A DNA stretch of 64,000 nucleotides. It comes from Thermobifida alba (lineage in GTDB: Bacteria > Actinomycetota > Actinomycetes > Streptosporangiales > Streptosporangiaceae). Positions 1-33,054 of the stretch are shown one piece after another; the first letter of the stretch is position 1, and every line of letters begins with the position of its first letter. A program made the position numbers and the translations under genes. The stretch covers positions 3,452,422 through 3,516,421 of the forward strand of contig NZ_CP051627.1 of the NCBI RefSeq assembly GCF_023208015.1. The letters run 5' to 3'. The notes under the pieces were generated by a model. That model searched no databases. It worked only from the letters and a program-made list of their open reading frames with translations, and had not been told where the DNA came from.

Positions 1-3000
1 AGCGTGCCGTCGTAGCGGCGGCCGAGCGTGCGCAGCCCCGCCAGGACGTCGGCGGGCACCTCGAAGCTCCGGGTGGCGCCCGCCGTGCCGCGCACCGGGG
101 GCCGCGGACGGTCGGTGGGCAGTTCCAGCGGGACCGCGCCGTCGAGGTGCTCCCGCCAGTGCTCCAGGCCGCCGGCGAACTCGGCGCTGTCGAGGTAGCG
201 CTCCTGCCACACCGCGTAGTCGGCGTACTGGAGGGGAGCGGGGTCCAGCCCCGCGCGGTCGGCCAGCCGGTCGGCGGACTCGCCGGGATGGGCGGCCGCC
301 GCGCTGTAGAGGGCGCCGAGTTCGCGGGTGAGCACCGACATCGACCAGGCGTCCGTGACGATGTGGTGGAGGACGAGCAGCAGCACGTGCTCCTCTTCGG
401 CCGTCCGCGCCAGCAGCATCCGCACGGGCGGTCGCGCGTCGAGTTCGAAGGGCGTGTTCACCTGTTCGGCGAGCCGCCGTTCCAGTTCGGCGTCCCGGTC
501 GGGGTGCGCCGACAGGTCCGCGACCTCCAGGGGCGCGCCCGCCGGCGGGTGCACCACCTGCACGGGGCGGCCGCCGCGGTCGTGGAAGGTGGTGCGCAGC
601 GCCTCGTGCCGGTGGACCAGCGCGTCGAGCGCGGTCCGCAGGGCCGTGGCGTCGAGGGGGCCGGTCAGCCGCAGCGCGCCGCCGGAGTTGTACTCGGCTC
701 CGCCCGACTCGTAGCGGTCGAGGAACCACAGGCGGCGCTGCGCGGCGGACATCGGCAGCTCCCCGTCCCGGGGGACGGGGGTGATACGGGACACCGGTCC
801 GGCGGTTCCGGCGGAGCGCAGCGCCTCCGCGAGTCCGGCGACGGTGGGGCGGTCGAAGACGGTGCGCGGGGGCAGGCGCACCCCGAAGACGTCGGCGATC
901 CGGGAGACCAGCCGGATCGCGCCGACCGAGTCGCCTCCGGAGCGGAAGAAGTCGTCGTGGACGCCGACCTCCGCCACGCCGAGCAGGTCGGTCCACAGGT
1001 CGGCGAGCCGCTGTTCGGTGTCGTCGCGCGGGGCGGTGTACCCGGCGCCGCCGCTCCAGTCGACGGCGGGCAGCGCGCGGCGGTCCACCTTGCCGTTGGC
1101 GTTCAGCGGGATCGTGTCGACGGGGACGACCGCGGCGGGGACCATGTGGTCGGGGAGCACGTCGGCGGCGCGTTTCCGCAGCAGTTCGGGGTCGGCCGCG
1201 TCGTCGGTCGCGGGCACCGCGTAGCCGACCAGCCGCCTGCCGAGGGGGGTGCGGTCCACGACCACCACCGCCTGGGCGATCTCGGGCAGGGCGGTGAGCG
1301 CGGTCTCGACCTCCCCCGGCTCGATCCGGAACCCGCGGATCTTGACCTGGTCGTCCACACGCCCCAGGAACTCCAGCTCACCGTCGGCACGCACCCGCAC
1401 CAGATCCCCCGACCGGTACATCCGGGCCCCGGGAGGACCGAAGGGATCAGCCACGAACCGCGACGCGGTCAACCCCGACCGACCGTGGTACCCACGCGCC
1501 ACCCCCTCCCCCGCGATGTACAACTCCCCCGACACCCCCGCACCCACCGGACGCAGCCAGTCGTCGAGCACGTACACCCGGGTTCCGGCCACCGGGTCGC
1601 CGAGGGGCGGTGCCGTGTCGCCGCTGAGGGGGGCGCTCATGGTGGCGCACACGGTCGCCTCGGTGGGGCCGTAGCCGTTGAACACGCGCCGTCCCGGGGC
1701 GAACCGCGCCACCTGTTCGGCGGGGCACGCCTCACCCGCGACGATCAGGTCGGTGACCGGGCCCAGGTCGTCGGGGGAGAGGCCGGGCAGGACCGCGGGC
1801 GGCAGGGTGACGTGGGTGATGCGGTACCCGCGCAGCACGGCGGGCAGTCCGTCGCCGAGGACGCGGTCCCGGGGCAGCATGACCACGGTGCCGCCGTTGA
1901 GGAGGGCCACGACCAGCTCGGCGATGGCCGCGTCGAAGCTGGGGGAGGCGAACTGCAGCAGGCGGGTTCCGGGGCCGACCTCCATCCGCCGTCCCTGGGT
2001 GTGGGCGAGGGCGGCGATGCCGCGGTGGGTCACCACCACCCCCTTGGGGGTCCCGGTGGAACCGGACGTGTAGATGACGTAGGCCGCGTCGTCCAGGCCC
2101 GTCCCGTCGGCGGCGGGCGCGGCCTCCCCGGTGGTCCTCTCCTCGTCCGGGCGCAGCACCGCGGTCCCGTCCGGCACCCGGTCGGCGGTGCGCGCGTCCG
2201 CCACCACCAGCCGGGCCCCGGCGTCCGCCACCATGAACTCCAGCCGCTCCCCCGGATACGCCGGGTCCAGCGGCAGGTACACGCCCCCCGCGCGCACCAC
2301 CGCCAGCAGCGCCACCACCGAGTCCGCGCCCCGCTCCAGGCACACCCCGACCCGGTCGCCCCGGCCCACGCCCCGCGCACGCAGCCCCGCGGCCAGCCGC
2401 TCCACCCGTTCCGCCAGCTCCGCGTAGGTGAGTTCACGCTCGGCGTCGACAACGGCGACGGCGTCGGGGTGGGCGGCGACCACGTCGGCGAACAGGTGCG
2501 GCAGGGGACGCGGCGCGGGAGCGGGCGCTCCTGGCCGGATTCCCTCCGCCTCGTGGGAGGGGCCGGTCCGGTGCAGCGGCCGCGGATCGCGCACCGCGGC
2601 GAAGACCGCACGCAGGTCCGCGGTCAGCGCCTCGACGGTGGCGCGGTCGAAGATCTCGGTGTTGTACTCGACGGCAGCCTCGATCCCGTCGTCCCGGGGG
2701 TGGAACTCGGCGGTCAGGTCGAACACCGAGTCGCGGCGCCGCACCGGGAACGGCCGGGCGTCCAGGCCGCCCAGCGAGGCCGGGGCGTCGCCTCCGGCGT
2801 TCTGCAGCACCACCGCGGCCTGCACCAGCGGTGGGACGGCCGGGTCGCGTTCGTCCAGCACCGCGTCCACGACGACGTCGAACGGCACCCCGGCGTGGTC
2901 GAGGTCGGTGAGCACGTCGTCGCGGACGCGTTCCAGGAACTCACCGAAGGAGAGCCGCTCGTCGACGGTGCCGCGCAGCGCGACCGTGTTGACGAAGAAC

Positions 3001-4013
3001 CCGACGGCGTCGTGCAGGCGCGGGTCGTCACGGCCGGCGGTGACCGTGCCGAGCACCACGTCGTCGGCGCGGGTCCAGCGCGCCATGGCCAGGCGCATTC
3101 CGGCGACCAGGACGGTGAAGAGGTTCGCGCCGTGCTCGCGGGCGGTCTGCTCCATGGCCGCGGCGGTGTCGGCGGGGATTCGGAAGGAGACCGAGTCGCC
3201 GCTGCCGCCGCGCACCGGCGGGCGGGGCCGGTCGGTGGGGAACTGGAGGGGCTCGGCTCCGGCGAGCCGGTCGCGCCAGTAGGCGACGGACCGCTCGTGG
3301 CGCTCGCCGCTGAGCCGGCCGCGCTGCCAGGAGGCGTAGTCGGCGTACTGGAGGGGAGGGTCCGCCAGTGACGCGGCGGCGAGCAGGTCCGCTCCCCGCA
3401 GGCCGGGGGCGGCGGCGGCCGCCGTGTACAGCCGGTCCAGTTCGCCGCGGAGCAGGCCGATGGACCAGCCGTCGGTGACGATGTGGTGCATGACCGCGAG
3501 GAGCACGTGCCGGTCGGCGGCGACGCGGACCACGTGGAACCGCAGCGGCGGCCCGGTCTCCAGGTCGAAGGGGCGGGCGTAGCACTCGTCGACGAGGGCG
3601 CGCAGGGCCTCCTCGCCTCCCGGGGGTGCCGGCACGACGTCGACCGCCGCGTCCGTGGGCGCGTGCACGACCTGGACGCCTTCGCCGTCCACCTCGTGGA
3701 AGGTGGTGCGCAGCGACTCGTGCCGGTGGACCAGGGCGGTGGCCGCCCGGCGCAGCGCGTCCTCGTCGAGGCCGCCGCGCAGGTCGAGGGCGAAACCCGA
3801 GTTGTAGTCGGTGCGTCCGGGGTTCATCCGGTCGAGGAACCACAGGCGCTGCTGGGCGTGCGACAGCGGCAGCGGGGCGTCCCGGGACACCCGGGGGATC
3901 TCCGCGGTGCGTTCGCGCCGCGCCGCCAGTCGCCGCCGCATCTCCTCCTGGAGCCGGGTCCTGGTCGCGGCATCGGTCTGACCGGTGCGATTCGTCGCGC
4001 GGTCGACGGTCAT
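1..4013 (-). CDS. Non-ribosomal peptide synthetase, 5'-partial in window (continues past position 1). C-A-T-C... Start ATG at 4011-4013 (reverse strand), preceded by GGAGGAG.
   Basis: Reverse-strand translation from 4013 gives MTVDRATNR...[24 protein letters not shown] (LCL-type C-domain C1 motif). HHIVTDGWS (C3) follows. An A domain follows (SGSTG...; [30 protein letters not shown] at ~1440-1380, verified codon by codon), then T (GGDS), then a second C domain towards position 1. Not in the ORF track because it has no in-window stop. Confidence 0.9.
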
Positions 4014-4072: not shown

Positions 4073-7000
4073 TCAGTCGGTCATCTCCTTCAGGACGGCT
4101 TCTTCGACCGCGGCCGCGAACTCGCGGAGGGTGGGGTGGTCGAACACCGTCCGGGTGGGGACGCGCACCCCGAAGGCGGACTCGATTCCGGAGACGACCC
4201 GGATTCCGGCCACCGAGTCGCCGCCGATGTCGAAGAAGTTGTCGCGCGCGCCGACCCGCTCCCGGCCCAGGGCTTCGGCCCACAGTTGCGCGACGACCTC
4301 CTCGGTGACGGTCTCGGGCGGTTCGTAGGGGGCCGCGGAGGAGCCGTCCGGTCGGGGCAGGGCGCGGCGGTCCACCTTGCCGTTGCGGTTGAGCGGCAGC
4401 TCGTCGAGGAGCAGCAGCGTCGCGGGAACCATGTAGGCGGGCAGGGAGCGCGCCAGTTCCGCGGTGACGGCGTCGGGGTCGGGGGCGGCGCCGGGCTCGG
4501 GGACGAGGTAGCCGACCAGTGTCCGCGACCCCGAGGGCGTGTCGACGACGGCGGCCGCGGCGTGGGCGACCCCCGGGCACGCGGCGAGCGCGTTCTCGAT
4601 CTCCCCGAGTTCGATGCGGTGGCCGCGCAGTTTGATCTGGCCGTCGGCGCGGCCCAGGAATTCGATGCGGCCGTCGGCGTTCCACCGCACCAGGTCGCCG
4701 GTGCGGTAGAGCCGTCCTCCGGGGGTGAAGGGGTCGGCCACGAACCGTTCGGCGGTCAGTCCGGGCCGTCCCTCGTAGCCGCGGGCGGTCCCGTGTCCGG
4801 CCAGGTACAGTTCGCCCACCGCGCCGACGGGGACCGGGTGCAGGAAGTCGTCCAGCACGTGCGCGCGGGTGCCGTCCATCGGGCGGCCGATGGGGGCCGC
4901 TCCGTGCTCGGCCTCGGCCGCGCTGATGGGGGTGCAGGTGGCGAAGGTGGTCGTCTCGGTCGGCCCGTAGACGTGCACCACCTCGGTGTCGGGGCAGGCG
5001 GCCAGGACCTTGGCGAAGGACGCCGGGTGGGCGGCCTCACCGCCGGTCCACACCTCGCGCAGCCCGGTGAAGCACCCGGGGTCCTGCTGGGCGAACAGGT
5101 TGAACAGGGCGGTGGTGAGGAAGACCGCGGTCACGCCGTGGTCGCGGACGCAGCGGCGGAGCGTGTCGGCGGTGACGTCGTCGGGCGGGGCGACCACGAC
5201 GGTGCCGCCGCCCAGCAGCGGTGCCCAGATCTCGTAGGTCGCGGCGTCGAACGCGTGCGGGGAGTGCCACAGGACGCGTTCGTGGCCGGACGTCCAGTGC
5301 CGGTCGCGGGCCAGGGCGACGATGTTGCCGTGGTCGACCACGACGCCCTTGGGGACGCCGGTGGAGCCGGAGGTGAACATCGTGTACGCGGCCGTGGCGG
5401 GGGAGACCGGCACGGTGTCGGCCGCGGGGCCGGGGTCGGGGCCCTGCGGGGTGCGGGGGCCGAACTCGACGACGGGGACGGCCGGTTCGCCGGGGAGGCG
5501 GTCGCGCAGGTCCGGGTCGACGACCGCGGCGCGGGCGCCGGTGTCGGTGAGGACGCGGGCGATCCGGTCGGGCGGGAAGTCCACGTGCACCGGGACGTAG
5601 GCGGCTCCGGTCTTGAGGACGGCGAGCATGGCGACGACGGTCCGCGGTGACCGGGGCATGAGGAGCAGCACCCGGTCCTCGCGGCCGACGCCGTGGCCGC
5701 GCAGCCGCGCCGCGAACCGGTCGGCGGCGGCGTCGAGTTCGGCGTAGCTGAGGGCGCCGCCGTCCCAGACCAGGGCGGGCGCGTCGGGCCGTTCGGCGGC
5801 CTGCGCGGCGAACAGGTCGGTGACCGACCGGGTCGGCGGCTGCGCCTGGGGGCCGTGGACGACGTCGGGGCCCGGTGCGGCGGTGGTGCGCCGCAGCCGT
5901 CCCAGGGGCGCATCGGGGTCGGCGGCGAGTCCGGCGAGGACGTCGACCAGGTCGCTGAGCAGGCGGTGGGCGGTGTCGGTGTGGAAGGCCGACGGGTCGT
6001 GGCCGAGCAGCAGGCGGATGTGGTCGCCGTCGTAGGCGGCCAGGGTCAGGGGATAGTTGGTGGCCTCGTCGGCGTCGACCCGCTCCACGGTGATGCCGTG
6101 GGCCCGGGCCGCCTCGGTGTCCACCGGATAGTTCTCGAACACCACCAGACTGTCGAACAACGGCGTCTGCGCACCCAGCGTCTCGGCCTGGATACGGTGC
6201 AACGGCACATGGTCGTACTCACGCGCCTCCAACTGCGCCTCCTGCAGAGCACGCAGCCACCGGACCACCGGCACCCCCGGCTCCACCCCCACCCGCACCG
6301 GCAGCGTGTTGATGAACAGGCCCACCGCCGAGTCCATGCCCGCCACCTCGGCACGACGCCCCGACGTCGTCGCCCCGAACACCACGTCACGCTGCCCCGA
6401 CCACGCCGACAACACCAACGCCCACGCCCCCTGAACCAGGGTGTTCAGCGTGATGCGACGGGAACGGGCGAAGTCGCGCAGTCTCCGGGTCTGTTCGACG
6501 GACAGTTCGCGGGGCAGGCGCGCGGTGGAGCGGGCGGTGCGTACGTCGCGGGGCGCCTGGTCGTAGGGCAGCGCCGTGGGCCCCTCGACCCCCTCCAAAA
6601 CCCGCCGCCAGTACGCCAGCCCCGACTCGGTGTCCCGCCCGGACAACCACTCCAGATGGTCGGCGAACGGCCGACGCCGCGGCAGCTCCTCCCCCGCATA
6701 CGCCGCGAACACGTCCGACAGCACCAGCGGCAGACTCCACCCGTCCAACAACAGATGGTGGAACGTCCACACCACCACCACACGGCCCCCGGCCAACCGC
6801 ACCAACCCCACACGCACGGGGGGTTCGTCGGCGAGGCGGAACTCCCGGGCCCTGTCCTCGGCCAGGAACTCCCTCAGGGCGGTGTCCCGGTCGCAGTGGC
6901 GCCGGTCGTGCACGGTCACCGACGCCTCCCGGTTCTGGTGGACCACTTGGACGGGGGAGTCCAGCCCCTCCCAGACCACCGTGGTCCGCAGCACCGGCGT

Positions 7001-10000
7001 TGCCCGGATCACCCGCCGCCACGCCCCGGCCAACCGCTCCACATCGTCCACCCCGGACAACTCCACGACCACCTGCTCCAGGTAGGCCGCCGAATCCGGC
7101 TCCAACAACGAGTGGAACAGCATCCCCTCCTGCATCGGCGTCAACGGCAACACGTCGACCACACCACGCCCGTCACCGACCAACCGGTCCACCCGCGCCT
7201 GGTCCAACGCCACCAACGGAAAGTCCGACGGCGTCGCACCCCCCACACCCCCGGACCGGCACAACTCCACCAACGCGACCACCTCGGCCACGAACCGCTC
7301 CGCCACCGCCACCACCGTCTCCCGGTCGTGGATCTCGTGCGAGTAGGCCCAGTCGAAGACGAGGCGGTCGCCGTCGTGGCGTCCGACGACGTCGATCAGG
7401 TGGGCCCTGGGGTGGTCGGGGTCCTGGGTGCCGCGCAGTACGGCCGAGGTGAAGGGCGTGCCGGTGGCGGTGTCGAAGCGGCCGAGGTAGTTGAAGCCGA
7501 CCGCAGGCACCGGAACCCGACCCAGCACCTCCCGCGCCCGCTCACCCCCCAGATAACGCAGCGCCCCGAACCCCACCCCCCGGTTCGGCACCGCACGCAA
7601 CGCCTCCTTGGTCCGCTTCAACAGCACCACCGGATCGGCGTCGTCCTCCAACGCCACCGGATACACACTGGTGAACCAGCCCACCGTCCGCGAGACATCC
7701 ACCCCGTCGAACAACTCCTCGCGGCCGTGGCCCTCCACATCCACCAACACCCGGCCCGCACCGGTCCACCCGCACAACACCCGACCCAACGCCGCCAGCA
7801 GCACATCGTCCACCCGCGCCCGAAACACCGACGCAGCCCCCCGCAACAACCCCTCCACGACATCGGGGGGAAGCGCGACCGACACCGTGCGCTGGGTGGA
7901 GACGGTGTTGGCTCCGTCGGCGTCCACCGGCACCTCGGCTTCGGCGTCGTCGGCGGCGACGGCAGTCCAGTGGTCGAGTTCGGTGTCGAAACCGCCCGCG
8001 GCGGTGAACTCCACCAACCGCCGCGCCCACTCCGCGAACGCCGTACTCCCCGCCCCCAGATCCACCGGCTCACCAGCCACCGCACTCCGGTAACCAGCCG
8101 CCAGATCCTCCAACAACACCCGCCACGACACCCCGTCCACCACCAGGTGGTGCGCCGCCAACAACAACCGCGCCCCCCGCACACCCCCGTCGAACACCAC
8201 CGCCCGCACCACGGGGCCGTCCGTCAGCGACAGTTCGGCCTCCACCCGGGCGGCGGTCTCGGCGATCACCGTGTCGGGGTCGTCCGCGGCGTCGAGGGTC
8301 ACGGTCTCGACGGCGGGGGCGGCCGCGGCGTCGTCGATGCGTGCCGCACCGTCCTCGACACGCAGTCGGAGCATGGCGTGCCGGTCGGCCAGCGCGGCCA
8401 CCGCCACCCCCAACGCCTCCCGGTCCACCCCCTCGACCAGATCCACCAGCACCGACATCGCGAAATGGTCCACACCGGCCGCATACACGTCGAAGAACCA
8501 CCGCATGATCGGCGTCAACGGCACCGGACCCGACACCGCCCCGCCGTCCACCCCACCCCCGGCAGCCTCCTCAACCACCGCCACCTCGGCCAACGCCGCC
8601 ACACACTGCCGCGCGAACACATCCCGCGACGTCACCACCACACCCTCACGCCGCGCCCGCGCCACCACCTGCAAACTCAGAATCGAATCCCCGCCCAACG
8701 CGAAGAAGTTGTCGTACACACCAACCCGATCCACCCCCAACACCACCGCGAACACCTCCGCCAACACCCGCTCCACCCCACTACGCGGAGCCACATACTC
8801 ATCGGCGGCGTTCGCGTTCCAGTCGGGTTCGGGGAGCGCGGACCGGTCCACCTTGCCGTTGCGGGTGACCGGGACGGTGTCGAGGACGAGCACGGAGTCG
8901 GGGACCATGGCGGGCGGCAGCGAGGCGGTGAGGGCCGAACGCAGTTCGGCGGCGTCCAGTTCGGTCTCCGCCTCCGCGACGACGTAGCCGACGAGGCGGC
9001 TCGCGTTCCGGTGGTCGGAGCGGACCACGGCCACGGCCTGGCGGACTCCGGGCAGCGCGGTGAGTGCTGCCTCGACCTCGCCGAGTTCGATCCGCACGCC
9101 GCGCACCTTGACCTGGTCGTCGGCGCGGCCGGCGAACTCCAGCTCGCCGTCGGCGTTCCACCGCACCAGGTCCCCGGTCCGGTAGAGCCGCCCACCCGAG
9201 GAGAACGGATCCGCCACGAACCGCGACGCGGTCAGCCCCGGACGACCGTGGTACCCACGCGCCACCCCGGCACCACCCACATACAGCTCACCGACCACCC
9301 CCACGGGCACCGGACGCAGAAAACCGTCCAGCACGTAGACCCGGGTGCCGAGGATCGGGCTGCCGATCGGCGGGGTCCGCCCCGGTGCGAGGGGTCCGCT
9401 GAGGGTGGCGGCGACGGTGATCTCGGTGGGGCCGTAGGCGTTGACCATCCTGCGGCCCGGCGCCCAGCGGCGCACCAGGTCGGCCGAGCACGCCTCCGCG
9501 CCGACGACGAGCGTGCGCAGGTCGGGGAAGTCGCCCTCGGGCACGGTGGCCAGCACGGACGGCGGGATGATGGTGAGGTTGACGCGGTGGTCGCGCAGCA
9601 CGTCGGCGAGGTCGTCCCCGACGAGCCCGCCCGGCGGCGGGAGGACCAGCGCGGCTCCGGCGCCGAACGCCATCAGCACCTCCATCACGGAGGCGTCGAA
9701 GCTGGCGGAGGCCAGTTGCAGCACCCGGAAGCCGGGTTCGGTGCCGAACCGGTCGCGCATGGCGGCGGCGAGTTCGGCGATGCCGCGGTGGGTCACCACC
9801 ACCCCCTTGGGGGTCCCGGTGGAACCGGACGTGTAGATCAGGTAGGCGGCGTCGTCCAGGGTGAGGTCCGGGCGCGGCGCACGCGGCGGCGCGTCCGCCG
9901 GGTCGGACAGGGTCACCCGGCGCACCCCGGCGGGCAGGTCGAGGGCGTCGTCACCGGTGACGACGGTGTCGGTGCCGGAGTCGTCGACCATGAACGCCAG

Positions 10001-13000
10001 CCGGTCGGCGGGGTAGTCGGGATCCAGCGGCAGGTAGACCGCCCCGATCCGGACCGCGGCGAGCAGCGCGGTGACCAGGTCCGGGCCTCGTTCCAGGCAG
10101 ACGCCCACGACGGAGCCGCGTCCCACGCCCAGGGCGGCGAGCCGGTCGGCGAACCGGTCGGCGGCGGCGTCGAGTTCGGCGTAGCTGAGGGCGCCGCCGT
10201 CCCAGACCAGGGCGGGCGCGTCGGGCCGTTCGGCGGCCTGCGCGGCGAACAGGTCGACCAGGGTCTGCGCGCGCAGCGGTCCGGGGTCGGCGTTCCACTC
10301 GGTGAGCACGCGGGCGCGCTCGTCGGGGTCCTGGAGGGGCAGGGCCGCGAGTCCGCGTCCGGGGTCGGCGGTCAGTTCGCGCAGCAGCCGTGCCACCCGG
10401 TCCAGCAGCTGGCGGGCGGTGTCGGCGTGGAACGCGGACGGATCGTACCTGAGGTGCAGGCGGATGTGGTCGCCGTCGTAGGCGGCCAGGGTCAGGGGAT
10501 AGTTGGTGGCCTCGTCGGCGTCGACCCGCTCCACGGTGATGCCGTGGGCCCGGGCCGCCTCGGTGTCCACCGGATAGTTCTCGAACACCACCAGACTGTC
10601 GAACAACGGCGTCTGCGCACCCAGCGTCTCGGCCTGGATACGGTGCAACGGCACATGGTCGTACTCACGCGCCTCCAACTGCGCCTCCTGCAGAGCACGC
10701 AGCCACCGGACCACCGGCACCCCCGGCTCCACCCCCACCCGCACCGGCAGCGTGTTGATGAACAGGCCCACCGCCGAGTCCATGCCCGCCACCTCGGCAC
10801 GACGCCCCGACGTCGTCGCCCCGAACACCACGTCACGCTGCCCCGACCACGCCGACAACACCAACGCCCACGCCCCCTGAACCAGGGTGTTGACCGTCAT
10901 CCGGTGGGTTCGGGCGAACCGGTGGAGGGCAGCGGTGTCCTGCTGGGGGAGGTGGTGCTCGATCCGTGCGGTGGAGCGGGCGGTGCGTACGTCGCGGGGC
11001 GCCTGGTCGTAGGGCAGCGCCGTGGGCCCCTCGACCCCCTCCAAAACCCGCCGCCAGTACGCCAGCCCCGACTCGGTGTCCCGCCCGGACAACCACTCCA
11101 GATGGTCGGCGAACGGCCGACGCCGCGGCAGCTCCTCCCCCGCATACGCCGCGAACACGTCCGACAGCACCAGCGGCAGACTCCACCCGTCCAACAACAG
11201 ATGGTGGAACGTCCACACCACCACCACACGGCCCCCGGCCAACCGCACCAACCCCACACGCACGGGAGGACGGGACCACGTGTCCATGCCTTCGGCCCGG
11301 TCCGCGGCGAGGTACTGCTCCAGGTGGGCACGCCGGGAGTCGGCGTCGTGGTCGCTGAGGTCGTGGACGCGCACCTCCGGTTCGGTGCTGCGGTGGACCA
11401 CTTGGACGGGGGAGTCCAGCCCCTCCCAGACCACCGTGGTCCGCAGCACCGGCGTCGCCCGGATCACCCGCCGCCACGCCCCGGCCAACCGCTCCACATC
11501 GTCCACCCCGGACAACTCCACGACCACCTGCTCCAGGTAGGCCGCCGAATCCGGCTCCAACAACGAGTGGAACAGCATCCCCTCCTGCATCGGCGTCAAC
11601 GGCAACACGTCGACCACACCACGCCCGTCACCGACCAACCGGTCCACCCGCGCCTGGTCCAACGCCACCAACGGAAAGTCCGACGGCGTCGCACCCCCCA
11701 CACCCCCGGACCGGCACAACTCCACCAACGCGACCACCTCGGCCACGAACCGCTCCGCCACCGCCACCACCGTCTCCCGGTCGTGCAGCGCCTCGGAGTA
11801 GATCCAGTCGAAGACGAGGCGGTCCTCGACGACCCTGCCGACGACGTCGAGCACGTGCGGGCGGGGCGAGTCGGGCGCGTACTCGCCTCCGGGGTTGAGG
11901 GTCAGCCCGGCGACCGGTCCGTTGTCGCTCTCGGTGTCGAAGCGGCCGAGGTAGTTGAAGCCGACCGCAGGCACCGGAACCCGACCCAGCACCTCCCGCG
12001 CCCGCTCACCCCCCAGATAACGCAGCGCCCCGAACCCCACCCCCCGGTTCGGCACCGCACGCAACGCCTCCTTGGTCCGCTTCAACAGCACCACCGGATC
12101 GGCGTCGTCCTCCAACGCCACCGGATACACACTGGTGAACCAGCCCACCGTCCGCGAGACATCCACCCCGTCGAACAACTCCTCGCGGCCGTGGCCCTCC
12201 ACATCCACCAACACCCGGCCCGCACCGGTCCACCCGCACAACACCCGACCCAACGCCGCCAGCAGCACATCGTCCACCCGCGCCCGAAACACCGACGCAG
12301 CCCCCCGCAACAACCCCTCCACGGCAGGGGAGGGGACCTCCACGGTGACGGTGCGCTGCGTCGCGGCGGTCGCGGTGCGTCCGCCGGGGGCGGGAAGGTC
12401 GGTGTCGAGGGGGACGTCGGGCTCCGCGCCGGCGGCGACGGCAGTCCAGTGGTCGAGTTCGGTGTCGAAGCCGCCCGCGGCGGTGAACTCCACCAACCGC
12501 CGCGCCCACTCCGCGAACGCCGTACTCCCCGCCCCCAGATCCACCGGCTCACCAGCCACCGCACTCCGGTAACCAGCCGCCAGATCCTCCAACAACACCC
12601 GCCACGACACCCCGTCCACCACCAGGTGGTGCGCCGCCAACAACAACCGCGCCCCCCGCACACCCCCGTCGAACACCACCGCCCGCACCACGGGTCCCTT
12701 CGCCGGGGAGAGGGACGCGTGCACCTGGTGGATGCGGGTCTGCAGGGCCTCGTCGGCCTGTTCGGGGGCGAGGCCGGACAGGTCGACGGTTTCCAGGGTG
12801 AGGTCGGCGGGTTCGGCGGGCAGCCACGCCCGGTCGCCGTCGGCGCGCAGTCGGAGCATGGCGTGCCGGTCGGCCAGCGCGGCCACCGCCACCCCCAACG
12901 CCTCCCGGTCCACCCCCTCGACCAGATCCACCAGCACCGACATCGCGAAATGGTCCACACCGGCCGCATACACGTCGAAGAACCACCGCATGATCGGCGT

Positions 13001-16000
13001 CAACGGCACCGGACCCGACACCGCCCCGCCGTCCACCCCACCCCCGGCAGCCTCCTCAACCACCGCCACCTCGGCCAACGCCGCCACACACTGCCGCGCG
13101 AACACATCCCGCGACGTCACCACCACACCCTCACGCCGCGCCCGCGCCACCACCTGCAAACTCAGAATCGAATCCCCGCCCAACGCGAAGAAGTTGTCGT
13201 ACACACCAACCCGATCCACCCCCAACACCACCGCGAACACCTCCGCCAACACCCGCTCCACCCCACTACGCGGAGCCACATACTCATCGGTGTCCCGGAC
13301 GTCGGGGGCGGGCAGGGCGGAGCGGTCCACCTTGCCGTTGGCGTTGAGCGGCATCGCGTCGAGGCGGACGAGCACCGAGGGGACCAGGTAGTCGGGCAGC
13401 CTGCCCGCGAGCGCGGCGCGGACGGCTTCGACGTCGGCGTCGGCGCCGACGAGGTAGCCGACGAGTTGGCGCACACCGGTCCCGGGCTCGTGGACCACCA
13501 CGACGGCCTCGTCCACTTCCGGCACCGCCAGCAGCGCGGCCTCGATCTCCCCGGGTTCGACGCGGAACCCGCGGATCTTGAGCTGGTCGTCGGCGCGGCC
13601 GGCGAACTCCAGCTCGCCGTCGGCGTTCCACCGCACCAGGTCCCCGGTCCGGTAGAGCCGCCCACCCGAGGAGAACGGATCCGCCACGAACCGCGACGCG
13701 GTCAGCCCCGGACGACCGTGGTACCCACGCGCCACCCCGGCACCACCCACATACAGCTCACCGACCACCCCCACGGGCACCGGACGCAGAAAACCGTCCA
13801 GCACGTAGACCCGGGTGCCGTCCAGGGGTCCGCCGATCGGCGGCGGCTCCGGGACCCCGCCGCCCCGCGGCAGCGTCGCGGTGGTGGCGTACGTCGTCGT
13901 CTCGGTGGGGCCGTAGACGTTGACCAGGTCCAGGTCCGGGCATGCCCGCGACACCCGTTCCAGGGCCGCCCGGTTGGCGGCCTCCCCTCCGGTCAGCACC
14001 TCGCGCAGCCCCGCGAAGCAGGTCGGCTCCTGGTGGGCGAACAGGTTGAACAGCGAGGTCGTCAGGAACACGCCGGTCACTCCGTGGCGGGCGACCTGGT
14101 CGGCGAAGCCCTCGGGGTCGAGGGTGCCGGGCGGGGCGACGGCCACGGTCCCGCCGGTCAGCAGCGGCGTCCAGATCTCGTAGGTCGCGGCGTCGAACGC
14201 GTGCGAGGAGTGGAACAGGACCCGGTCGTGCGCTCCGCCGCGCCAGCGGTGGTCGCTGGCGAGCGCGGTGATGTCCCCGTGGGTGACGGCCACTCCCTTG
14301 GGGGTGCCGGTGGAGCCGGAGGTGAACATCACGTAGGCGAGGTGGTGCGGCGTGACGGCGGGCAGGTCGGAGCCGTCGGGGAGCGTCTTCTCCCCGACGG
14401 GCCGTCCGGCGCGGTCCAGTGTCAGGACCGGGACGTCCACCTCTGCGGTGACGTGGGCGGAGGCCGCGTCGGTGAGCACGCACGCCGCACCGGTGTCCTC
14501 GACCAGCCAGCGCACCCGCGAGGCGGGGTCGCCCGCGTGTGCGGGGACGTAGGCGCCTCCGGCGCGGAGGACCGCGAGCATCGCCACCACGACGTGGGCG
14601 CCGCGCTCCAGGGCCAGGACGACCGGCGTCTCCACGTCCACGCCCTGGCCGCGTAGCAGTCGGGCCAGCCGGTCGGTGCGGGCGTCGAGTTCGGCGTAGC
14701 TGAGGGCGCCGCCGTCCCAGACCAGGGCGGGCGCGTCGGGCCGTTCGGCGACCTGCGCGGCGAACAGGTCGGTGACCGTGGCCGGGGGTGCGGCCGGGGT
14801 GTCGCCCGCCCAGCGCAGCAGGGTGTCGCGCGCGGCGTCGTCGCTCGGGTCCAGCGCCGCGATCCGCAGGTCGGGGTCGGCCGTCGCGGCGTCGACGATC
14901 CTGTCGAACGCGGCGACGAGCGCCTCGATGCGTTCGGGCCGGTACAGGGCGGTGCTGTACTCGACGGTGAGCCGCAGTCCGCCGTCGCGCTCCTCGAACT
15001 CGAAGACGAGGTCGAAGAGGGCGGAGCGGCGCGGAAGGTCGACGGCGTGGACGTCGAGGCCGGGGAGGTCGAGGTCGCCGGAGTGGGCGTTCTGCAGCAC
15101 CACCAGTGCCTGGAAGAGGGGGGTGCGCGAGGGGTCGCGTTCGTCGACGAGCCGCTCCACCAGCAGGTCGAAGGGCACCTCGTGGGCGAAGGCGTCGAGC
15201 ACGGTGCGGCGGATGTCGGCCAGGAAGGACCGCACCGTCGCCGACCGTTCGGGGGCCGTGCGGATCACCAGCGGGTTGACGAAGAATCCGACGACGTCGT
15301 CGAGCCGGTGGTGGTCGCGTCCGGAGGCCGCGATGCCCAGCGCGACGTCCCGGCTGCCCGAGGCGGCGACGAGCAGCAGGTGGACCAGCGCGGTCAGCGT
15401 CATGAACAGGGTGGCGTCCTCGTTGCGGCCCAGGCGCCGCAGCGCGTCGGTCGCCGCTGGGGAGAGCACGTGCCGGTGGACTGCTCCGGCCGTGGACCGG
15501 ATCTCGGGGCGCGGGTGGTCGGTGGGCAGCTCCAGCACCGGGGGGTCGGCCAGGTGCCGCGACCAGTGGTCGAGGCGCCGGCGGGTCTCGGGAGTGTCGC
15601 GGCGGTCCTGCTCCCAGACGGCGAAGTCGAGGTAGCGCAGTCGCGGTTCGGGCAGCGTGCCGCCGTCGCCGTCGACCCTGCTCCGGTAGAGGGCGGCCAG
15701 GTCGCGGTTGACGACGTCCACCGACCATCCGTCGCTGACGATGTGGTGCGAGCTCAGCACGAGGACGTGCTCGTGTGCGTCCATGCGGACCAGCAGCGCC
15801 CGGAACAGCGGTCCGCGGGCGAGGTCGAAGGGCTGCTGCGTCTCGGCTTCGAGCAGGCGGGCCAGTTCCCGGTCGCGTTCGTGCGCGGGCCGGTCGGACA
15901 GGTCTTCCTCGGTGAGGAGGTCGGCGGCCTCGGGGACGGGGGTGATCCGCTGCAGGGGGTGTCCGTCGACGTCGTCGAAGACGGTCCGCAGCGATGCGTG

Positions 16001-17956
16001 GCGGGCGACCAGGTCGACCAGTGCGGCGCGCAGCGCGGGGACGGACAGCGGTCCGCGCACCCGGTAGGCGGTGCCGGTGTAGTACTCGGTCCCGGTCTGC
16101 TCGTACTGGTCGAGGAACCACAGGCGGCGCTGCGCGGCGGACAGCGGCGCCGGTCCGTCCTCCTCGGTCCGTTCGATGGGGTCGGCTGTCCCGCCGTGCT
16201 CGCGCACGTGCTCGGCGAGCTGGGCGGCGGTCGGGTGGGCGAAGAGGACGCGCCGGTCCAGGGCCGTGCCCAGTCGGGCGTCGATGCGTGACAGCGCGCG
16301 GGCGGCCAGGATGGAGTCGCCGCCGAGGTCGGAGAAGAAGTCGTCCTCGACGCTCACCCGGTCCACCGCGAGGACCGCTGCGAACTCCTCGGCGACGGCC
16401 CGCTCGGTGTCGTCCCGCGGGGCGACGTGGTCGCGTCCGGAGGTGTCGGGGGCGGGCAGGGCGGCACGGTCGATCTTGCCGTTGGCGGTCATGGGCAGGG
16501 CGTCGAGCGGTACCACCGCGGAGGGCACCATGTGGTCGGGCAGGGTCGCGGCCAGGGCCGCGCGCACCTCGTCGGGGTCGACCCGGGTGTCGGGGGCGAC
16601 GACGTAGCCGACCAGGCGGCGCACGCCCGGACGGTCCTCGCGGACGGTGACCACGGCGTGGCGGACCCCGGGCAGGGCGGTGAGCGCGGTCTCGACCTCC
16701 CCCGGCTCGACCCGGAACCCGCGGATCTTGACCTGGTCGTCCACACGCCCCAGGAACTCCAGCTCACCGTCGGCACGCACCCGCACCAGATCCCCCGACC
16801 GGTACATCCGGGCCCCGGGAGGACCGAAGGGATCAGCCACGAACCGCGACGCGGTCAACCCCGACCGACCGTGGTACCCACGCGCCACCCCCTCCCCCGC
16901 GATGTACAACTCCCCCGACACCCCCGCACCCACCGGACGCAGCGCGTCGTCCAGGACGTACACCGAGGTGCCGTCGACGGCCCGGCCGATCGGGGGGCGT
17001 CCGGCGCCGCTGAGGGGGGCGCTCATGGTGGCGCACACGGTCGTCTCGGTGGGGCCGTAGCCGTTGAACACGCACCGTCCCCGCGACCACAGGTCGACGA
17101 GTTCCCCGGGGCACGCCTCACCCGCGACCATCAGCGACTCCAGGTCGTCCAGTCCTTCGGGGGAGAGGCCGGGCAGGACCGCGGGCGGCAGGGTGACGTG
17201 GGTGATGCGGTGCCCGCGCAGGGTCCGCACCAGCGCGTCGCCGAGGAGCCGTTCCCTGGGCTGCACCACCAGGGCCGCACCATTGAGCAGGGCCATGCAC
17301 ACCTCGAACACCGAGGCGTCGAAGCTGGGCGAGGCGAACTGCAGCACCCGGGAGTCGGAACGCACCCGCATGCGGACCCTCTGGGTACGGGCCAGGGCGG
17401 CGATGCCGCGGTGGGTCACCACCACCCCCTTGGGGGTCCCGGTGGAACCGGACGTGTAGATGACGTAGGCCGCGTCGTCCAGGCCGAGGTCGAACCGCGG
17501 GGCCGGGGCGGACGCGGCGGGCTCTCCGGTGAACACACGCGTTCCGTCGAGGAGCGTCCCCTTCCGGGCGGGGTCCGTGACGACCAGCGCCGCAGCGGAG
17601 TCGCGGAGCATGAACTCCAGGCGCTGCCGGGGATAGGCCGGGTCGAGGGGCAGGTAGGCACCGCCCGCCCGCATCACGGCGAGCAGGGCGACCACCAGCT
17701 CCGTCCCGCGCTCCAGGCACACCCCGACCCGGTCACCGCGGCCCACGCCCGCCTCGGCCAGCGCGCCGGCCAGTCGTTCGACGCGCTCGTGCAGTTCTCC
17801 GTAGGTCAGAGTCCCGGTCTCGGACACCAGCGCCACCGCGTCCGGGTTGCGTCGCGCCTGCGCGGCGAACAGTTCCGGCAGCGGCCGCGGCGCCTCGGGG
17901 GCGTCCGCGGGGCGGTTGGCACGGTCGGATTCCTGGAAGGACGGCACGGATCCCAC
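4073..17956 (-). CDS. Four-module non-ribosomal peptide synthetase (4627 aa): A-T | C(LCL)-A-T-E | C(DCL)-A-T-E | C(DCL)-A-T. No TE domain.
   Basis: Track ORF. Read from the protein: adenylation cores ([31 protein letters not shown]), PCP GGDS motifs, two epimerization domains ([10 protein letters not shown]..., [10 protein letters not shown]), DCL condensation starts ([13 protein letters not shown]) after each E, and LCL start ([11 protein letters not shown]) after the E-less module 1. Ends in a PCP (...[13 protein letters not shown]...EMTD*). Confidence 0.95.
5700..8805. repeat. Intragenic direct repeat copy 1 (NRPS module 3→4 junction: T-E-DCL C plus A-domain N-terminus). Near-identical to 10150..13289.
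   Basis: Identical ORF-track translations at a constant ~4446-bp offset (6046..6390 vs 10492..10836 are 100% identical; 6387..7022 vs 10833..11477; 7542..8030 vs 12006..12509; 8271..8987 vs 12732..13391). Short divergent islands at ~5815-5990 and ~7880-7990. Confidence 0.85.
10150..13289. repeat. Intragenic direct repeat copy 2 (NRPS module 2→3 junction).
   Basis: See copy 1. Nucleotide strings such as ggcggacgggtcgtggccgagcagcaggcggatgtggtcgccgtcgtaggcggccagggtcaggggatagttggtggcctcgtc occur at both 6000-6080 and 10440-10520. Confidence 0.85.
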
Positions 17957-18040: not shown

Positions 18041-19465
18041 TCAGGCCGCGGTGGCCTGGTCGGTGCGGCGCAGGGTGCGGCCGTTGTACTGCATGAGTTC
18101 GACCGTGTCGGCGGAGTCGGGGGCGCGCAGGAAGCGGCCGCTGAGCAGGAGGCCGCCGTACTCGGCCGCTTCGACGCTGAAGGTGAGGTCGGGCCCGGCC
18201 TCCAGGCTGCCGTGGAGGCCGTTGGAGATGTTGAAGCGGAAGGCGCCGGCCTGGTCGGGGGTGATCCGCACCGACAGTTCTCCGTTGGTGTAGTTGCCGG
18301 TGAACCGCGCGTCGGGCAGGGACGTGCCGGACGCGGGCCTCGGCTGGCGGTAGTGGCCGACGTGCAGTCCGAGGTTGCGCAGCTCGTCGACCAGGTCCTC
18401 CCACATCGCCAGGCCGGTGGTGGAGTTGGTGGTGAGCGCGACCGCGGCCCCGCCCGCCGGATCGAGGCGCACGTTGCAGGTGCCGCCGTCGAGGGTGCCG
18501 TCGTGGCCGAGCCAGCGGGTCCGGTCCGCGTGGAAGACTCCCCAGCCCGCGCACCATCCGTCGGCCAGGCCGAACGGCTCGGCGGCGCGGACCTCGCGTC
18601 CCATCTCCGCGAGCACCTCGGGGTCGGCGATCTCGGTGTCGAGTGCGGCGTGGTCGGCGGCCATGAACGCGCGCGCGAAGGCGACGAGGTCGGTGGCGCT
18701 GCCCGCGAGGCCGCCCGCGGCGGTGAGGGCGGGCTCGACGTAGAAGTCGACCGGTTCGGTGTGTCCGGTCGCGGAGTGCACCGCGTGGCCGCTGACGGTG
18801 TCGGGGCGGGCGGAGGGGGTGCGCGCGTCGTGGACGAAGGCCAGGTCCAGGCCGGTCGGGCCGAACAGGTAGGACTCGATGGCCTCCCACCAGTCCTGGC
18901 CGGTCACGGCCTCCACGACGTAGGCGGCGACCGCGTAGCCGGTGTTGGAGTAGGAGAACGCGGTCCCCGGCGTGCTGATCCACTCGGTGTCCAGGACCGA
19001 GGTGAAGTGGCGGCGCAGTGACGCCGAGCGGAGCGGGGCGCCCTCGTGGTCGGAGACCAGCCCCGAGGTGTGGCTGAGCAGGTGGCGGAGGGTGGTCGAG
19101 CGCATCGGGTGGCCGTGGGGGATCTGGTGGGACGCCAGGTGGTCGGCGACGGGACGGTCGAGTTCGATCTCGCCGTCCTCGACCAGCTGCATGACCAGGG
19201 CCGCGGTGAAGATCTTGCTGACCGATCCGTAGGGGAAGCGGGAGCGGGGGGTGACCGGGTCCGGTCGTCCGGTCCGCGTCACGCCGTGGACCGCTTCGAG
19301 CAACTCTCCGTCCAGGTACACCGCGAGCTGAGCGCCGGGGACCCGATGCCGTTCAGCGAGCTTCTCCAACAGGCCAGAAATCCGGTCGAGTTCCACTCTC
19401 TCCCCCTGAAGAGCATGTGAGCGATCGAGTATTTCCTCTGATCTCCACGTGGTATAGACACACAT
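18041..19465 (-). CDS. β-lactamase/PBP-fold serine hydrolase (class C / DD-peptidase family). Candidate PBP-type trans thioesterase/peptide cyclase (SurE/DsaJ-like) of the NRPS operon. Exact start codon uncertain.
   Basis: Track ORF. SxxK motif (GSVSKIF), YSN motif (FSYSNTGY), and a C-terminal extension after the catalytic domain. Same strand and 84 bp upstream of the TE-less NRPS. Low-GC promoter-like region directly upstream (19400-19560). Confidence 0.8.
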   Translation of the reverse strand: MCVYTTWRSEEILDRSHALQGERVELDRISGLLEKLAERHRVPGAQLAVYLDGELLEAVHGVTRTGRPDPVTPRSRFPYGSVSKIFTAALVMQLVEDGEIELDRPVADHLASHQIPHGHPMRSTTLRHLLSHTSGLVSDHEGAPLRSASLRRHFTSVLDTEWISTPGTAFSYSNTGYAVAAYVVEAVTGQDWWEAIESYLFGPTGLDLAFVHDARTPSARPDTVSGHAVHSATGHTEPVDFYVEPALTAAGGLAGSATDLVAFARAFMAADHAALDTEIADPEVLAEMGREVRAAEPFGLADGWCAGWGVFHADRTRWLGHDGTLDGGTCNVRLDPAGGAAVALTTNSTTGLAMWEDLVDELRNLGLHVGHYRQPRPASGTSLPDARFTGNYTNGELSVRITPDQAGAFRFNISNGLHGSLEAGPDLTFSVEAAEYGGLLLSGRFLRAPDSADTVELMQYNGRTLRRTDQATAA

Positions 19466-20199: not shown

Positions 20200-20218
20200 G
20201 ATACGGATTATCCGTATC
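20200..20218. promoter_or_regulatory. 19-bp AT-rich perfect palindrome GATACGGAT-T-ATCCGTATC (candidate transcription-factor operator) in a 1.1-kb non-coding region.
   Basis: The sequence is its own reverse complement apart from the central base. It is conspicuously AT-rich within >70% GC DNA. Confidence 0.4.
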
Positions 20219-26828: not shown

Positions 26829-26841
26829 CCGTGGCTCCCGG

Positions 26842-28278: not shown

Positions 28279-28313
28279 GCGGGCTCCCTTCGGCCTCGGA
28301 GGACCATGTCGAA

Positions 28314-28339
28314 CTGGGGTAAACAAGTGTTCACCCCAG
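28314..28339. promoter_or_regulatory. Operator-like inverted repeat CTGGGGTAAACAAGTGTTCACCCCAG upstream of MFS gene 1 (candidate TetR site).
   Basis: Half-sites GGGGTAAACA / GGGGTGAACA (9/10) with extended CTGGGG..CCCCAG arms. 36-60 bp upstream of the start. Near-identical motif at 29841..29866. Confidence 0.6.
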
Positions 28340-33047: not shown

Positions 33048-33054
33048 GGACTGT

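What the first reader, a model, noticed from the sequence alone, without database searches (positions are those of the whole stretch)
18041..19465. Stand-alone PBP/β-lactamase-fold hydrolase directly upstream of a TE-less, E-domain-rich NRPS (SurE-like offloading cyclase architecture)
The 4-module NRPS ends in a PCP with no thioesterase. The next NRPS begins with a C domain, so the assembly line continues. The gene immediately upstream in the same orientation is a class-C β-lactamase/DD-peptidase-fold protein (SVSK, YSN motifs) with a C-terminal extension. This is the genetic arrangement of the surugamide, desotamide and ulleungmycin families, where a PBP-type TE releases and head-to-tail cyclises a peptide with a C-terminal D-residue. 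Two E domains show the product contains at least two D-amino acids.
Basis: partly seen in the sequence, partly recalled or inferred. Interest (0 to 1): 0.65.

Follow-up and report, generated by a model that had tools for sequence, protein, structure and literature searches.

The report
SurE-like peptide cyclase beside TE-less NRPS
This Thermobifida alba gene encodes a stand-alone SurE-type (penicillin-binding-protein-fold) cyclase that sits in front of a six-module peptide synthetase with no thioesterase and a terminal epimerase, so it most likely releases and head-to-tail cyclises a still unidentified hexapeptide; this is a new example of a known arrangement.

Summary
The gene is real, but its true start is the GTG at 19396, giving 451 aa rather than 474. 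The window comes from Thermobifida alba.

**The enzyme.** Its best matches among solved structures are SurE (E = 1.8e-96 over the full length, including the C-terminal lipocalin-like domain) and Ulm16. Ordinary β-lactamases and DD-peptidases score far lower. The residues corresponding to SurE S63, K66, Y154, N156, H305 and G235 are all conserved. An AlphaFold model (pLDDT 90.5) superposes on SurE with TM 0.86–0.88.

**The synthetase.**
- NRPS1 is A-T-C-A-T-E-C-A-T-E-C-A-T.
- NRPS2 runs off the window. I completed it from a conspecific assembly with a 100% identical overlap. It is C-A-T-C-A-T-E, has no TE, and is followed by an MbtH gene.
- Together they make six modules with predicted chirality L-D-D-L-L-D. 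That means a free L N-terminus and a D C-terminus, which PBP-type thioesterases require.

**Conservation.** The same cluster occurs in Nocardiopsis, Marinitenerispora, Salinactinospora and several Streptomyces species.

**What remains open.** The product is unknown, and I found no paper linking Thermobifida to this enzyme class. It is a new member of a known kind, of modest interest. Its main appeal is as a possibly thermostable cyclase and an orphan cyclohexapeptide family.

The parts
18041..19396 (-). Stand-alone PBP-type thioesterase (SurE/DsaJ/Ulm16-like peptide cyclase), 451 aa. The PBP domain covers roughly aa 1-350 and the lipocalin-like β-domain roughly aa 355-445. Predicted catalytic residues are S58 (19223-19225), K61, Y149, N151 and H298. 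Pocket residue G228 corresponds to SurE G235.
   Evidence: Pfam PF00144. PDB sequence search: SurE 6KSU E = 1.8e-96 over residues 12-467 of the 474-aa ORF, and Ulm16 8FEK E = 5.6e-72. Residue mapping. AF2 pLDDT 90.5, with 8 β-strands at aa 367-445. Foldseek SurE TM 0.86/0.88. The start GTG at 19396 follows GGGGGAG, and the product is identical to the T. alba protein P0001.
4073..17956 (-). NRPS1, four modules: A1-T1 | C2-A2-T2-E2 | C3-A3-T3-E3 | C4-A4-T4, with no TE and no starter C domain. Approximate domain coordinates: A1 16397-17884, T1 16157-16384, C2 14819-16150, A2 13277-14764, T2 13037-13249, E2 11657-13024, C3 10277-11614, A3 8807-10249, T3 8552-8764, E3 7187-8539, C4 5837-7159, A4 4337-5812, T4 4106-4297.
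   Evidence: Pfam counts of 4 A, 4 T and 5 Condensation stretches, with no PF00975. Motif map and Stachelhaus codes. Grouping of C and E domains. Domain boundaries are approximate, taken from motif positions and Pfam best stretches.
1..4013 (-). 5' part of NRPS2: C5-A5-T5 and the N-terminal part of C6. The gene continues 3802 nt beyond the left end of the window. The complete protein is 2604 aa, C-A-T-C-A-T-E, and is followed by an mbtH-like gene.
   Evidence: Start ATG at 4013 after GGAGGAG. Pfam on the visible part. Composite with L080, whose positions 16108-17516 are the exact reverse complement of window 1-1409. Pfam on the composite gives 3 Condensation, 2 A and 2 T stretches and no TE. 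The terminal domain carries the E motifs [16 protein letters not shown] and FNYLG.
5958..13791 (-). Intragenic near-identical direct repeat inside NRPS1. The T-E-C stretch of module 3 (5958-9321) and that of module 2 (10404-13791) are 91-100% identical. The A domains between them differ.
   Evidence: the repeat finder families D2 and D5-D11. It explains the gapped and collapsed forms of this locus in a draft assembly.

Best explanation
The gene at 18041-19396 (minus strand) encodes a cytoplasmic, stand-alone PBP-type thioesterase. It is the first gene of a probable operon: cyclase, NRPS1 (4 modules), NRPS2 (2 modules plus a terminal E domain), then MbtH.

**Assembly (inferred from domain order).** The six-module line starts with a plain A-T loading module, so the peptide has a free L N-terminus. 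It builds a hexapeptide of predicted chirality L-D-D-L-L-D that stays thioester-bound on the last carrier domain. The terminal E domain epimerises residue 6.

**Release (inferred by homology to SurE, Ulm16 and WolJ).** The cyclase acts in trans. Ser58 is activated through Lys61 and Tyr149, with Asn151 and His298 completing the catalytic set. It attacks the thioester of the D-configured C-terminal residue to form an acyl-enzyme. The α-amine of L-residue 1 then attacks the acyl-enzyme, releasing a head-to-tail cyclohexapeptide. The lipocalin-like C-terminal domain forms part of the substrate cleft.

**Predicted residues, from 10-residue specificity codes (tentative).** Phe-like aromatic, D-Val/Ile-like, D-aliphatic, Val, Phe-like aromatic, then a D-polar or charged residue that I could not assign.

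**Shown versus inferred.** Shown here: sequence and fold membership, domain order, absence of a TE, and conserved synteny. Inferred: activity, the cyclic nature of the product, and its composition.
For: **The enzyme**
- SurE (6KSU) is the top sequence hit among solved structures, E = 1.8e-96, aligned end to end including the C-terminal domain. Ulm16 is second.
- SurE S63, K66, Y154, N156, H305 and G235 all have identical counterparts, and these positions are invariant across 38 homologues.
- The AF2 model has pLDDT 90.5 and pTM 0.92, with an eight-strand C-terminal β-domain. Its best Foldseek hits are SurE (TM 0.86/0.88) and Ulm16 (0.81/0.89).
- All NCBIfam β-lactamase, AmpH and D-aminopeptidase models score far below their cut-offs.
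- The N-terminus MELDRISGLLEKLAERHR... shows no signal-peptide-like segment (read directly from the sequence).

**The synthetase**
- NRPS1 and the completed NRPS2 contain no TE, and the line ends in an E domain.
- The domains that follow E domains form their own group (C3 and C4, 85% identical). The others (C2, C5, C6) form another group, as expected for DCL versus LCL condensation domains.
- No thioesterase-family protein turned up among the other window ORFs I scanned.

**Conservation**
- A cyclase homologue lies directly upstream of an NRPS in a Streptomyces relative, where the NRPS is 4785 aa.
- The same adjacency holds in Nocardiopsis ansamitocini, whose cyclase is 68% identical.
- NRPS2 orthologues in 11 further genomes have the same C-A-T-C-A-T-E plus MbtH layout and near-identical A5 and A6 codes. 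ABC/FtsX exporter genes follow them.

**Family features and residue assignment**
- The defining features of the family (two domains, stand-alone, L N-terminus with D C-terminus) come from the review PMC11735501.
- The A4 code DAYFWGVTFK is listed as Val in PMC9113097.
Against: - There are no biochemical or metabolite data for this enzyme or for any member of its roughly 50-68% identity clade.
- The closest characterised enzymes are only 40-43% identical.
- The 3' part of NRPS2 is not in the window. It comes from a draft assembly that is visibly broken at this repeat-rich locus: a single-N gap in L080 and a collapsed copy in L081. What lies beyond mbtH in T. alba was not seen.
- SurE also yields linear product on some substrates, so hydrolytic release cannot be excluded.
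- The specificity codes for A1, A3, A5 and A6 have no exact match that I could verify, so the residue predictions are weak.
- C6 has HHIVTDA in place of the canonical HHxxxDG. I do not expect this to matter, but I did not test it.
Confidence: 0.85

Rival explanations
1. The protein is an ordinary serine β-lactamase, DD-peptidase or D-aminopeptidase involved in cell-wall metabolism or resistance, and it lies next to the NRPS genes by chance.
For: It matches Pfam Beta-lactamase and carries the SxxK and YxN motifs shared by the whole superfamily. Weak similarity to class C β-lactamases, R61 DD-peptidase and D-aminopeptidase is detectable.
Against: - Scores to SurE and Ulm16 are 2.4-3.2 times higher than to any other solved protein, and only those two align through the C-terminal domain.
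- The class C model scores 65 bits against a cut-off of 415.
- No signal peptide is visible in the sequence.
- The third motif is HDG, as in SurE, not KTG.
- The gene is 84 nt from NRPS1 on the same strand, and this adjacency is conserved across genera.
- The NRPS otherwise has no release domain.
Confidence: 0.03
2. The enzyme is a true PBP-type thioesterase homologue, but in this pathway it releases something other than a head-to-tail monomeric ring. Candidates are a linear hexapeptide released by hydrolysis, or a cyclodimer or oligomer.
For: The review PMC11735501 reports three relevant behaviours. Surugamide F occurs in linear form, SurE cyclodimerises short substrates, and PenA gives mixed cyclisation and hydrolysis on a tetrapeptide.
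Against: - All PBP-type thioesterases characterised so far give head-to-tail macrolactams on their native substrates (PMC8610019).
- Hexapeptides are native substrates of the homologues Ulm16 and WolJ/DsaJ.
- The substrate here has the required L N-terminus and D C-terminus.
Confidence: 0.08
3. The cluster is a decaying or silent remnant and makes no product. The NRPS would be inactivated by recombination between its internal repeats or by other lesions.
For: - NRPS1 contains a 3.3-kb near-identical repeat that is prone to recombination.
- One public assembly shows 3-module and gapped versions of the locus.
- No product has been reported from Thermobifida.
Against: - In the window all reading frames are intact over 13.9 kb and 4 kb, with strong GC3 bias (0.86-0.91).
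- All core motifs are present: A3, A10, the carrier-domain GGDS, and HHxxxD.
- The aberrant versions are 100% identical to the window up to the repeat, and one contains an N. That points to assembly artefacts rather than biology.
- The cluster is conserved in many genera.
Confidence: 0.04

Closest known systems
SurE (surugamide cyclase, Streptomyces albidoflavus; PDB 6KSU/6KSV)
   Same: - It has the same two-domain architecture: a PBP domain plus a lipocalin-like domain.
- The residues equivalent to S63, K66, Y154, N156, H305 and the pocket residue G235 are identical.
- The gene is stand-alone and lies directly upstream of, and co-oriented with, a four-module first NRPS that lacks a TE.
- The substrate has an L N-terminus and a D C-terminus.
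- Supporting calls: 6, 33, 45.
   Different: - Identity is only 41%.
- SurE serves two assembly lines (an octapeptide and a decapeptide) encoded by four NRPS genes. Here there is one six-module line on two genes.
- SurE prefers neutral C-terminal D-residues (PMC11735501). The code for the last A domain here (DADDTGFVNK) suggests a polar or charged residue, though that is tentative.
DsaJ / WolJ (desotamide and wollamide cyclases)
   Same: At 43% identity it is the most similar named homologue (P0041). Its product is a cyclohexapeptide, it acts with a TE-less NRPS, and WolJ accepts C-terminal D-Orn or D-Arg.
   Different: - The NRPS gene split differs. From my own recollection, untested here, the desotamide line is spread over three NRPS genes, whereas this one is 4+2.
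- The predicted residue pattern and the L-D-D-L-L-D chirality do not match desotamide or wollamide.
- The T. alba enzyme belongs to a separate clade at 52-68% identity, in which nothing has been characterised.
Ulm16 (ulleungmycin cyclase; PDB 8FEK)
   Same: It is the second-best match among solved structures, E = 5.6e-72 and TM 0.81/0.89, and its native substrate is a hexapeptide.
   Different: Identity is about 40%. The sequence alignment to Ulm16 breaks into two stretches and skips query residues 209-243, numbered on the 474-aa ORF. This fits the shortened PBP-domain loop that the review reports for Ulm16. The window contains no halogenase or enduracididine genes.

Membership tests
PBP-type thioesterase (SurE family of stand-alone NRP cyclases) | N-terminal PBP/β-lactamase-fold domain carrying the catalytic residues: the SxxK Ser and Lys, the YxN Tyr and Asn, and the His of HxG. 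| tested here: met
   PF00144 E = 6.4e-59. S58, K61, Y149, N151 and H298 align with SurE S63, K66, Y154, N156 and H305 and are invariant in 38 homologues.
PBP-type thioesterase (SurE family of stand-alone NRP cyclases) | C-terminal lipocalin-like domain made of eight antiparallel β-strands. | tested here: met
   The sequence alignment to SurE runs through to residue 467 of the 474-aa ORF. The AF2 model shows 8 strands between aa 367 and 445, with block-mean pLDDT of about 76-91. Full-length superposition on SurE and Ulm16 covers 441-448 alignment columns.
PBP-type thioesterase (SurE family of stand-alone NRP cyclases) | Closer to characterised PBP-type thioesterases than to β-lactamases, DD-peptidases or esterases. 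| tested here: met
   SurE scores 327 bits and Ulm16 246 bits, against 102 bits for the next best hit, esterase IS11. NCBIfam class C, AmpH and D-aminopeptidase models all fall below their cut-offs. This is a score ranking, not a formal phylogeny.
PBP-type thioesterase (SurE family of stand-alone NRP cyclases) | Stand-alone gene clustered with an NRPS that lacks a C-terminal TE domain. | tested here: met
   The gene is 84 nt upstream of NRPS1 on the same strand. There is no PF00975 hit in NRPS1 or in the completed NRPS2. The last 3.8 kb of NRPS2 was taken from conspecific locus L080 and is corroborated by orthologues.
PBP-type thioesterase (SurE family of stand-alone NRP cyclases) | Substrate with an N-terminal L-residue carrying a free amine, and a C-terminal D-residue or Gly. 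| tested here: met
   This is predicted from domain order only. Module 1 is A-T, with no starter C domain and no E domain. The last module is C-A-T-E with intact E motifs. It has not been verified chemically.
PBP-type thioesterase (SurE family of stand-alone NRP cyclases) | Catalyses head-to-tail macrolactamisation of the carrier-bound peptide. | not testable with these tools
   This needs an enzyme assay with a peptidyl-SNAC or similar thioester, or a knockout combined with metabolite analysis.
Class C β-lactamase / AmpH / D-aminopeptidase (ordinary members of the fold) | Score at or above the curated family cut-off. | tested here: not met
   bla_class_C scores 65.5 bits against 415, AmpH 46.6 against 266, and D-aminopeptidase 59.2 against 443.

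The most novel reading that the evidence does not exclude
The T. alba enzyme and its 52-68% identical relatives form an uncharacterised clade of PBP-type thioesterases. The relatives occur in Nocardiopsis, Marinitenerispora, Salinactinospora, Haloactinospora and several Streptomyces species, including S. somaliensis.

This clade would be dedicated to a new, widely conserved cyclohexapeptide family with L-D-D-L-L-D chirality and a polar or charged D-residue at the ring-closing site. The T. alba member comes from a thermophile, so it could be a naturally thermostable cyclase with a C-terminal specificity that complements SurE's.
Probability: 0.45. Interest if true: 0.5.

Novelty: new member of a known kind. 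Interest (0 to 1): 0.35.

Why it matters
PBP-type thioesterases are sought as biocatalysts for head-to-tail peptide macrocyclisation. Only a handful have been characterised (SurE, PenA, Ulm16, FlkO, WolJ), and all come from mesophilic actinomycetes.

A member from the thermophile Thermobifida alba, in a clade with no characterised enzyme, is a reasonable candidate for two things. One is a more robust cyclase. The other is a route to an orphan cyclohexapeptide family shared by Nocardiopsidaceae and several Streptomyces species.

It does not change how these systems are understood. It is a genome-mining lead, not a new mechanism.

Tried and rejected
1. **Protein search with the visible 1337 aa of NRPS2.** I hoped to retrieve the full-length T. 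alba protein, but it was not returned. No listed hit exceeded about 2340 aa, so very long proteins may be missing from that index. The search gave nothing useful.
2. **Scan of the genome collection with the last 400 visible residues of NRPS2.** It did not return T. alba itself. It did return the orthologous clusters used.
3. **Extension beyond the window.** This came instead from the look-up of encoding contigs on the cyclase. L080 joins window position 13291 to 1409 through a single N and then continues 3.8 kb past the window edge. L081 is the same locus with one repeat unit collapsed. I treat both as assembly artefacts, not as paralogous clusters.
4. **Nocardiotide A as a possible product of the orthologous clusters.** I rejected it. 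It is cyclo(Ile-Trp-Ala-Val-Leu-Trp) from a Nocardiopsis strain and is reported as all-L. Neither its residue order nor its chirality fits the predicted L-D-D-L-L-D pattern and codes.
5. **Full-text search for the six specificity codes.** Only DAYFWGVTFK was found, listed as Val. The others remain unassigned.
6. **Supplementary tables of the SNaPP survey of 500 PBP-cyclase clusters.** They are not held in the library, so I could not check whether this cluster was already listed there.
7. **Look-up of the S. enissocaesilis cyclase P0028.** No record was found.
8. **Rfam scan of the window.** It found only three tRNAs and nothing in the 1.2-kb leader upstream of the cyclase gene.
Full report
**Source and gene model.**
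- The window has 70-77% G+C.
- The protein encoded at 18041-19396 is 100% identical to a Thermobifida alba 'serine hydrolase domain-containing protein' (P0001, 451 aa). T. alba belongs to the Nocardiopsidaceae, order Streptosporangiales.
- The GTG at 19396 lies 4 nt after GGGGGAG and gives the deposited 451-aa product. Homologues also begin there. I therefore place the gene at 18041-19396 on the minus strand.

**What the protein is: sequence.**
- Pfam gives Beta-lactamase PF00144 over residues 32-352 of the 474-aa ORF, E = 6.4e-59.
- Against all PDB chains the best hits are SurE (6KSU/6KSV; E = 1.8e-96, 327 bits, query 12-467 against chain 14-470) and the 'PBP cyclase Ulm16' (8FEK; E = 5.6e-72).
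- The next hit, the thermophilic esterase IS11, scores only 102 bits. R61 DD-peptidase, D-aminopeptidase and AmpC enzymes score 38-75 bits and align only to the PBP domain.
- NCBIfam models for class C β-lactamase, AmpH and D-aminopeptidase are hit far below their curated cut-offs, for example 65.5 against 415 bits.

**What the protein is: residues and fold.**
- In a MAFFT alignment with SurE (P0042), DsaJ (P0041) and two close relatives, SurE S63, K66, Y154, N156, H305 and G235 correspond to S58, K61, Y149, N151, H298 and G228. SurE G235 is the residue that sets the size of the pocket for the C-terminal D-residue (PMC11735501).
- Identity is 41% to SurE and 43% to DsaJ.
- The catalytic positions are invariant in a 38-sequence alignment.
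- An AlphaFold2 model built from that alignment has mean pLDDT 90.5 and pTM 0.92. It shows an α/β domain followed by eight β-strands at aa 367-445.
- Foldseek against the PDB ranks SurE first (TM 0.86/0.88 over 446 columns) and Ulm16 next (0.81/0.89).
- The N-terminus has no signal-peptide-like segment, read directly from the sequence. This fits a cytoplasmic enzyme.

**The assembly line: NRPS1.**
- It starts 84 nt downstream on the same strand, at 4073-17956 (4627 aa; the called start in a public annotation is 17947).
- It has 4 AMP-binding, 4 PP-binding and 5 Condensation-family stretches and no thioesterase.
- Motif mapping gives A-T-C-A-T-E-C-A-T-E-C-A-T.

**The assembly line: NRPS2.**
- It starts at the ATG at 4013 after GGAGGAG and runs off the window.
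- L080 comes from assembly GCA_039539925.1 and was retrieved through the cyclase. It is 100% identical to window 29396-13291. It then has a single N, is 100% identical to window 1409-1, and continues for 3.8 kb.
- The composite NRPS2 is 2604 aa. It contains 3 Condensation, 2 AMP-binding and 2 PP-binding stretches and no TE.
- An ORF beginning MSNP follows 26 nt later, and the public annotation calls it MbtH.

**The assembly line: condensation-family domains.** The eight domains fall into three groups:
- C2, C5 and C6 (38-48% identical to each other), which follow carrier domains without epimerisation.
- C3 and C4 (85% identical), which follow E domains.
- E2, E3 and E6 (50-83% identical), which carry [16 protein letters not shown] and FNYLG.

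The line therefore has six modules with predicted chirality L-D-D-L-L-D, a free N-terminal amine because there is no starter C domain, and a terminal E domain in place of a TE. No thioesterase-family protein was found among the other ORFs I scanned in the window.

**Predicted residues.** I aligned each A domain to the GrsA Phe domain. The GrsA sequence was recalled from memory, and it reproduces the published code DAWTIAAICK. This gives:

| A domain | Code | Reading |
|---|---|---|
| A1 | DAFTMAGVCK | Phe-like aromatic (6/10 match to the GrsA Phe code) |
| A2 | DAYFLGVTYK | Val/Ile-like (8/10 match to the A4 code) |
| A3 | DAMIVGAVAK | Probably aliphatic |
| A4 | DAYFWGVTFK | Val (tabulated as Val in PMC9113097) |
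| A5 | DAATIAGVCK | Phe-like aromatic (7/10 match to the GrsA Phe code) |
| A6 | DADDTGFVNK | Acidic pocket residues suggest a polar or cationic substrate; unassigned |

Apart from A4, these readings are inferences.

**Conservation.**
- The cyclase has a distinct set of relatives at 52-68% identity. They occur in Nocardiopsis, Marinitenerispora, Salinactinospora, Haloactinospora, Streptomonospora and several Streptomyces species.
- Identity then drops to 37-43% for the other sampled homologues, which include SurE and DsaJ.
- In relatives of Streptomyces sp. SCUT-3, the homologue is followed by a 4785-aa NRPS.
- In N. ansamitocini it is followed directly by an NRPS with the order A-T-C-A-T-C....
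- Eleven genomes carry NRPS2 orthologues of about 2600-2900 aa with C-A-T-C-A-T-(E) order and codes DAATLAAVCK-like and DAWDTGFVNK-like. An Mbt​H-like motif follows in nine of the eleven.
- In the five of those orthologous loci I checked, what follows on the opposite strand is FtsX-like permease genes, with ABC transporter and HTH regulator genes in two of them, not further NRPS genes.

**Mechanism.** By homology with SurE, Ulm16 and WolJ (PMC11735501), the enzyme should act in trans on the hexapeptidyl thioester held on the last carrier domain. It would form an acyl-Ser58 intermediate at the D-configured C-terminus, and the L-configured N-terminal amine would then close the ring. This step is inferred, and nothing here demonstrates activity.

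**Rivals.** All three are disfavoured by the evidence above, but only experiment can exclude them:
- an ordinary β-lactamase or DD-peptidase;
- hydrolytic or oligomerising release;
- a decaying cluster.

**Comparison and novelty.**
- The arrangement is the one known from the surugamide, desotamide/wollamide, ulleungmycin, pentaminomycin and related clusters.
- Systematic surveys have already used SurE homologues as a handle to find hundreds of such clusters (PMC8610019).
- I found no paper connecting Thermobifida with this enzyme class or with a non-ribosomal peptide of this kind.
- Nocardiotide A, a known Nocardiopsis cyclohexapeptide, does not fit the prediction.
- The finding is therefore a correct identification of a new, uncharacterised member of a known kind. 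Its extra value lies in the thermophilic host and the orphan, widely conserved hexapeptide cluster family.

**Caveats.**
- The 3' end of NRPS2 and the mbtH gene lie outside the window and come from a draft assembly that mishandles this locus.
- That mishandling is explained by the 3.3-kb near-identical repeat inside NRPS1.
- Domain boundaries in the parts list are approximate.
- The grouping with PBP-type thioesterases rests on score ranking and fold comparison, not on a formal tree.

Noticed in passing
window 5958-9321 and 10404-13791 (inside NRPS1): A 3.3-kb direct repeat, 91-100% identical with a period of about 4.46 kb, covers the T-E-C stretches of modules 3 and 2, while the A domains between them differ. 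It suggests recent module duplication or gene conversion. It is also a recombination and assembly hazard.
   Followed up: partly
L080 and L081 (GCA_039539925.1, contig BAABEB010000005.1, ranges 180391-201746 and 326668-348023): The same locus appears twice on one contig of a public draft assembly. Both copies are 100% identical to the window up to position 13291. One then has a single-N gap that jumps to window 1409. The other has one repeat unit collapsed, giving a 3129-aa NRPS1. These are most likely assembly artefacts, not a real duplication.
   Followed up: partly
window 19397-20600: About 1.2 kb upstream of the cyclase gene has no convincing ORF, slightly lower G+C (about 0.70) and no Rfam match. 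It is an unusually long leader or promoter region for the operon. A small 80-100 aa hydrophobic ORF lies at 20601-20903 on the minus strand.
   Followed up: partly
window 26265-29857 (minus strand): A TetR-family regulator is followed by two tandem MFS transporter paralogues that are about 80-82% identical at the DNA level. They are possible exporters, but I have no evidence linking them to the NRPS cluster.
   Followed up: no
window 30945-38028 (plus strand): A 700-aa protein with no Pfam or PADLOC hit and unusually low second-position G+C (0.40) is followed by a 1657-aa DUF3686 + DUF7902 + AAA ATPase. The ATPase gives only very weak PADLOC similarities (IetA, LmuB). The pair is uncharacterised.
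   Followed up: partly
window 51619-51976 (minus strand): A cluster of three tRNA genes, which are the only Rfam matches in the window.
   Followed up: no
window ~368 (NRPS2 residue 1216, domain C6): The active-site motif of the last condensation domain reads HHIVTDA instead of the canonical HHxxxDG.
   Followed up: no
window 21176-21754 (plus strand): This may be a remnant of a LUD-domain (lactate utilisation) gene. A related metagenomic contig (L082) has a 214-aa gene there with a faint LUD_dom hit, but the window ORF has no Pfam hit.
   Followed up: partly
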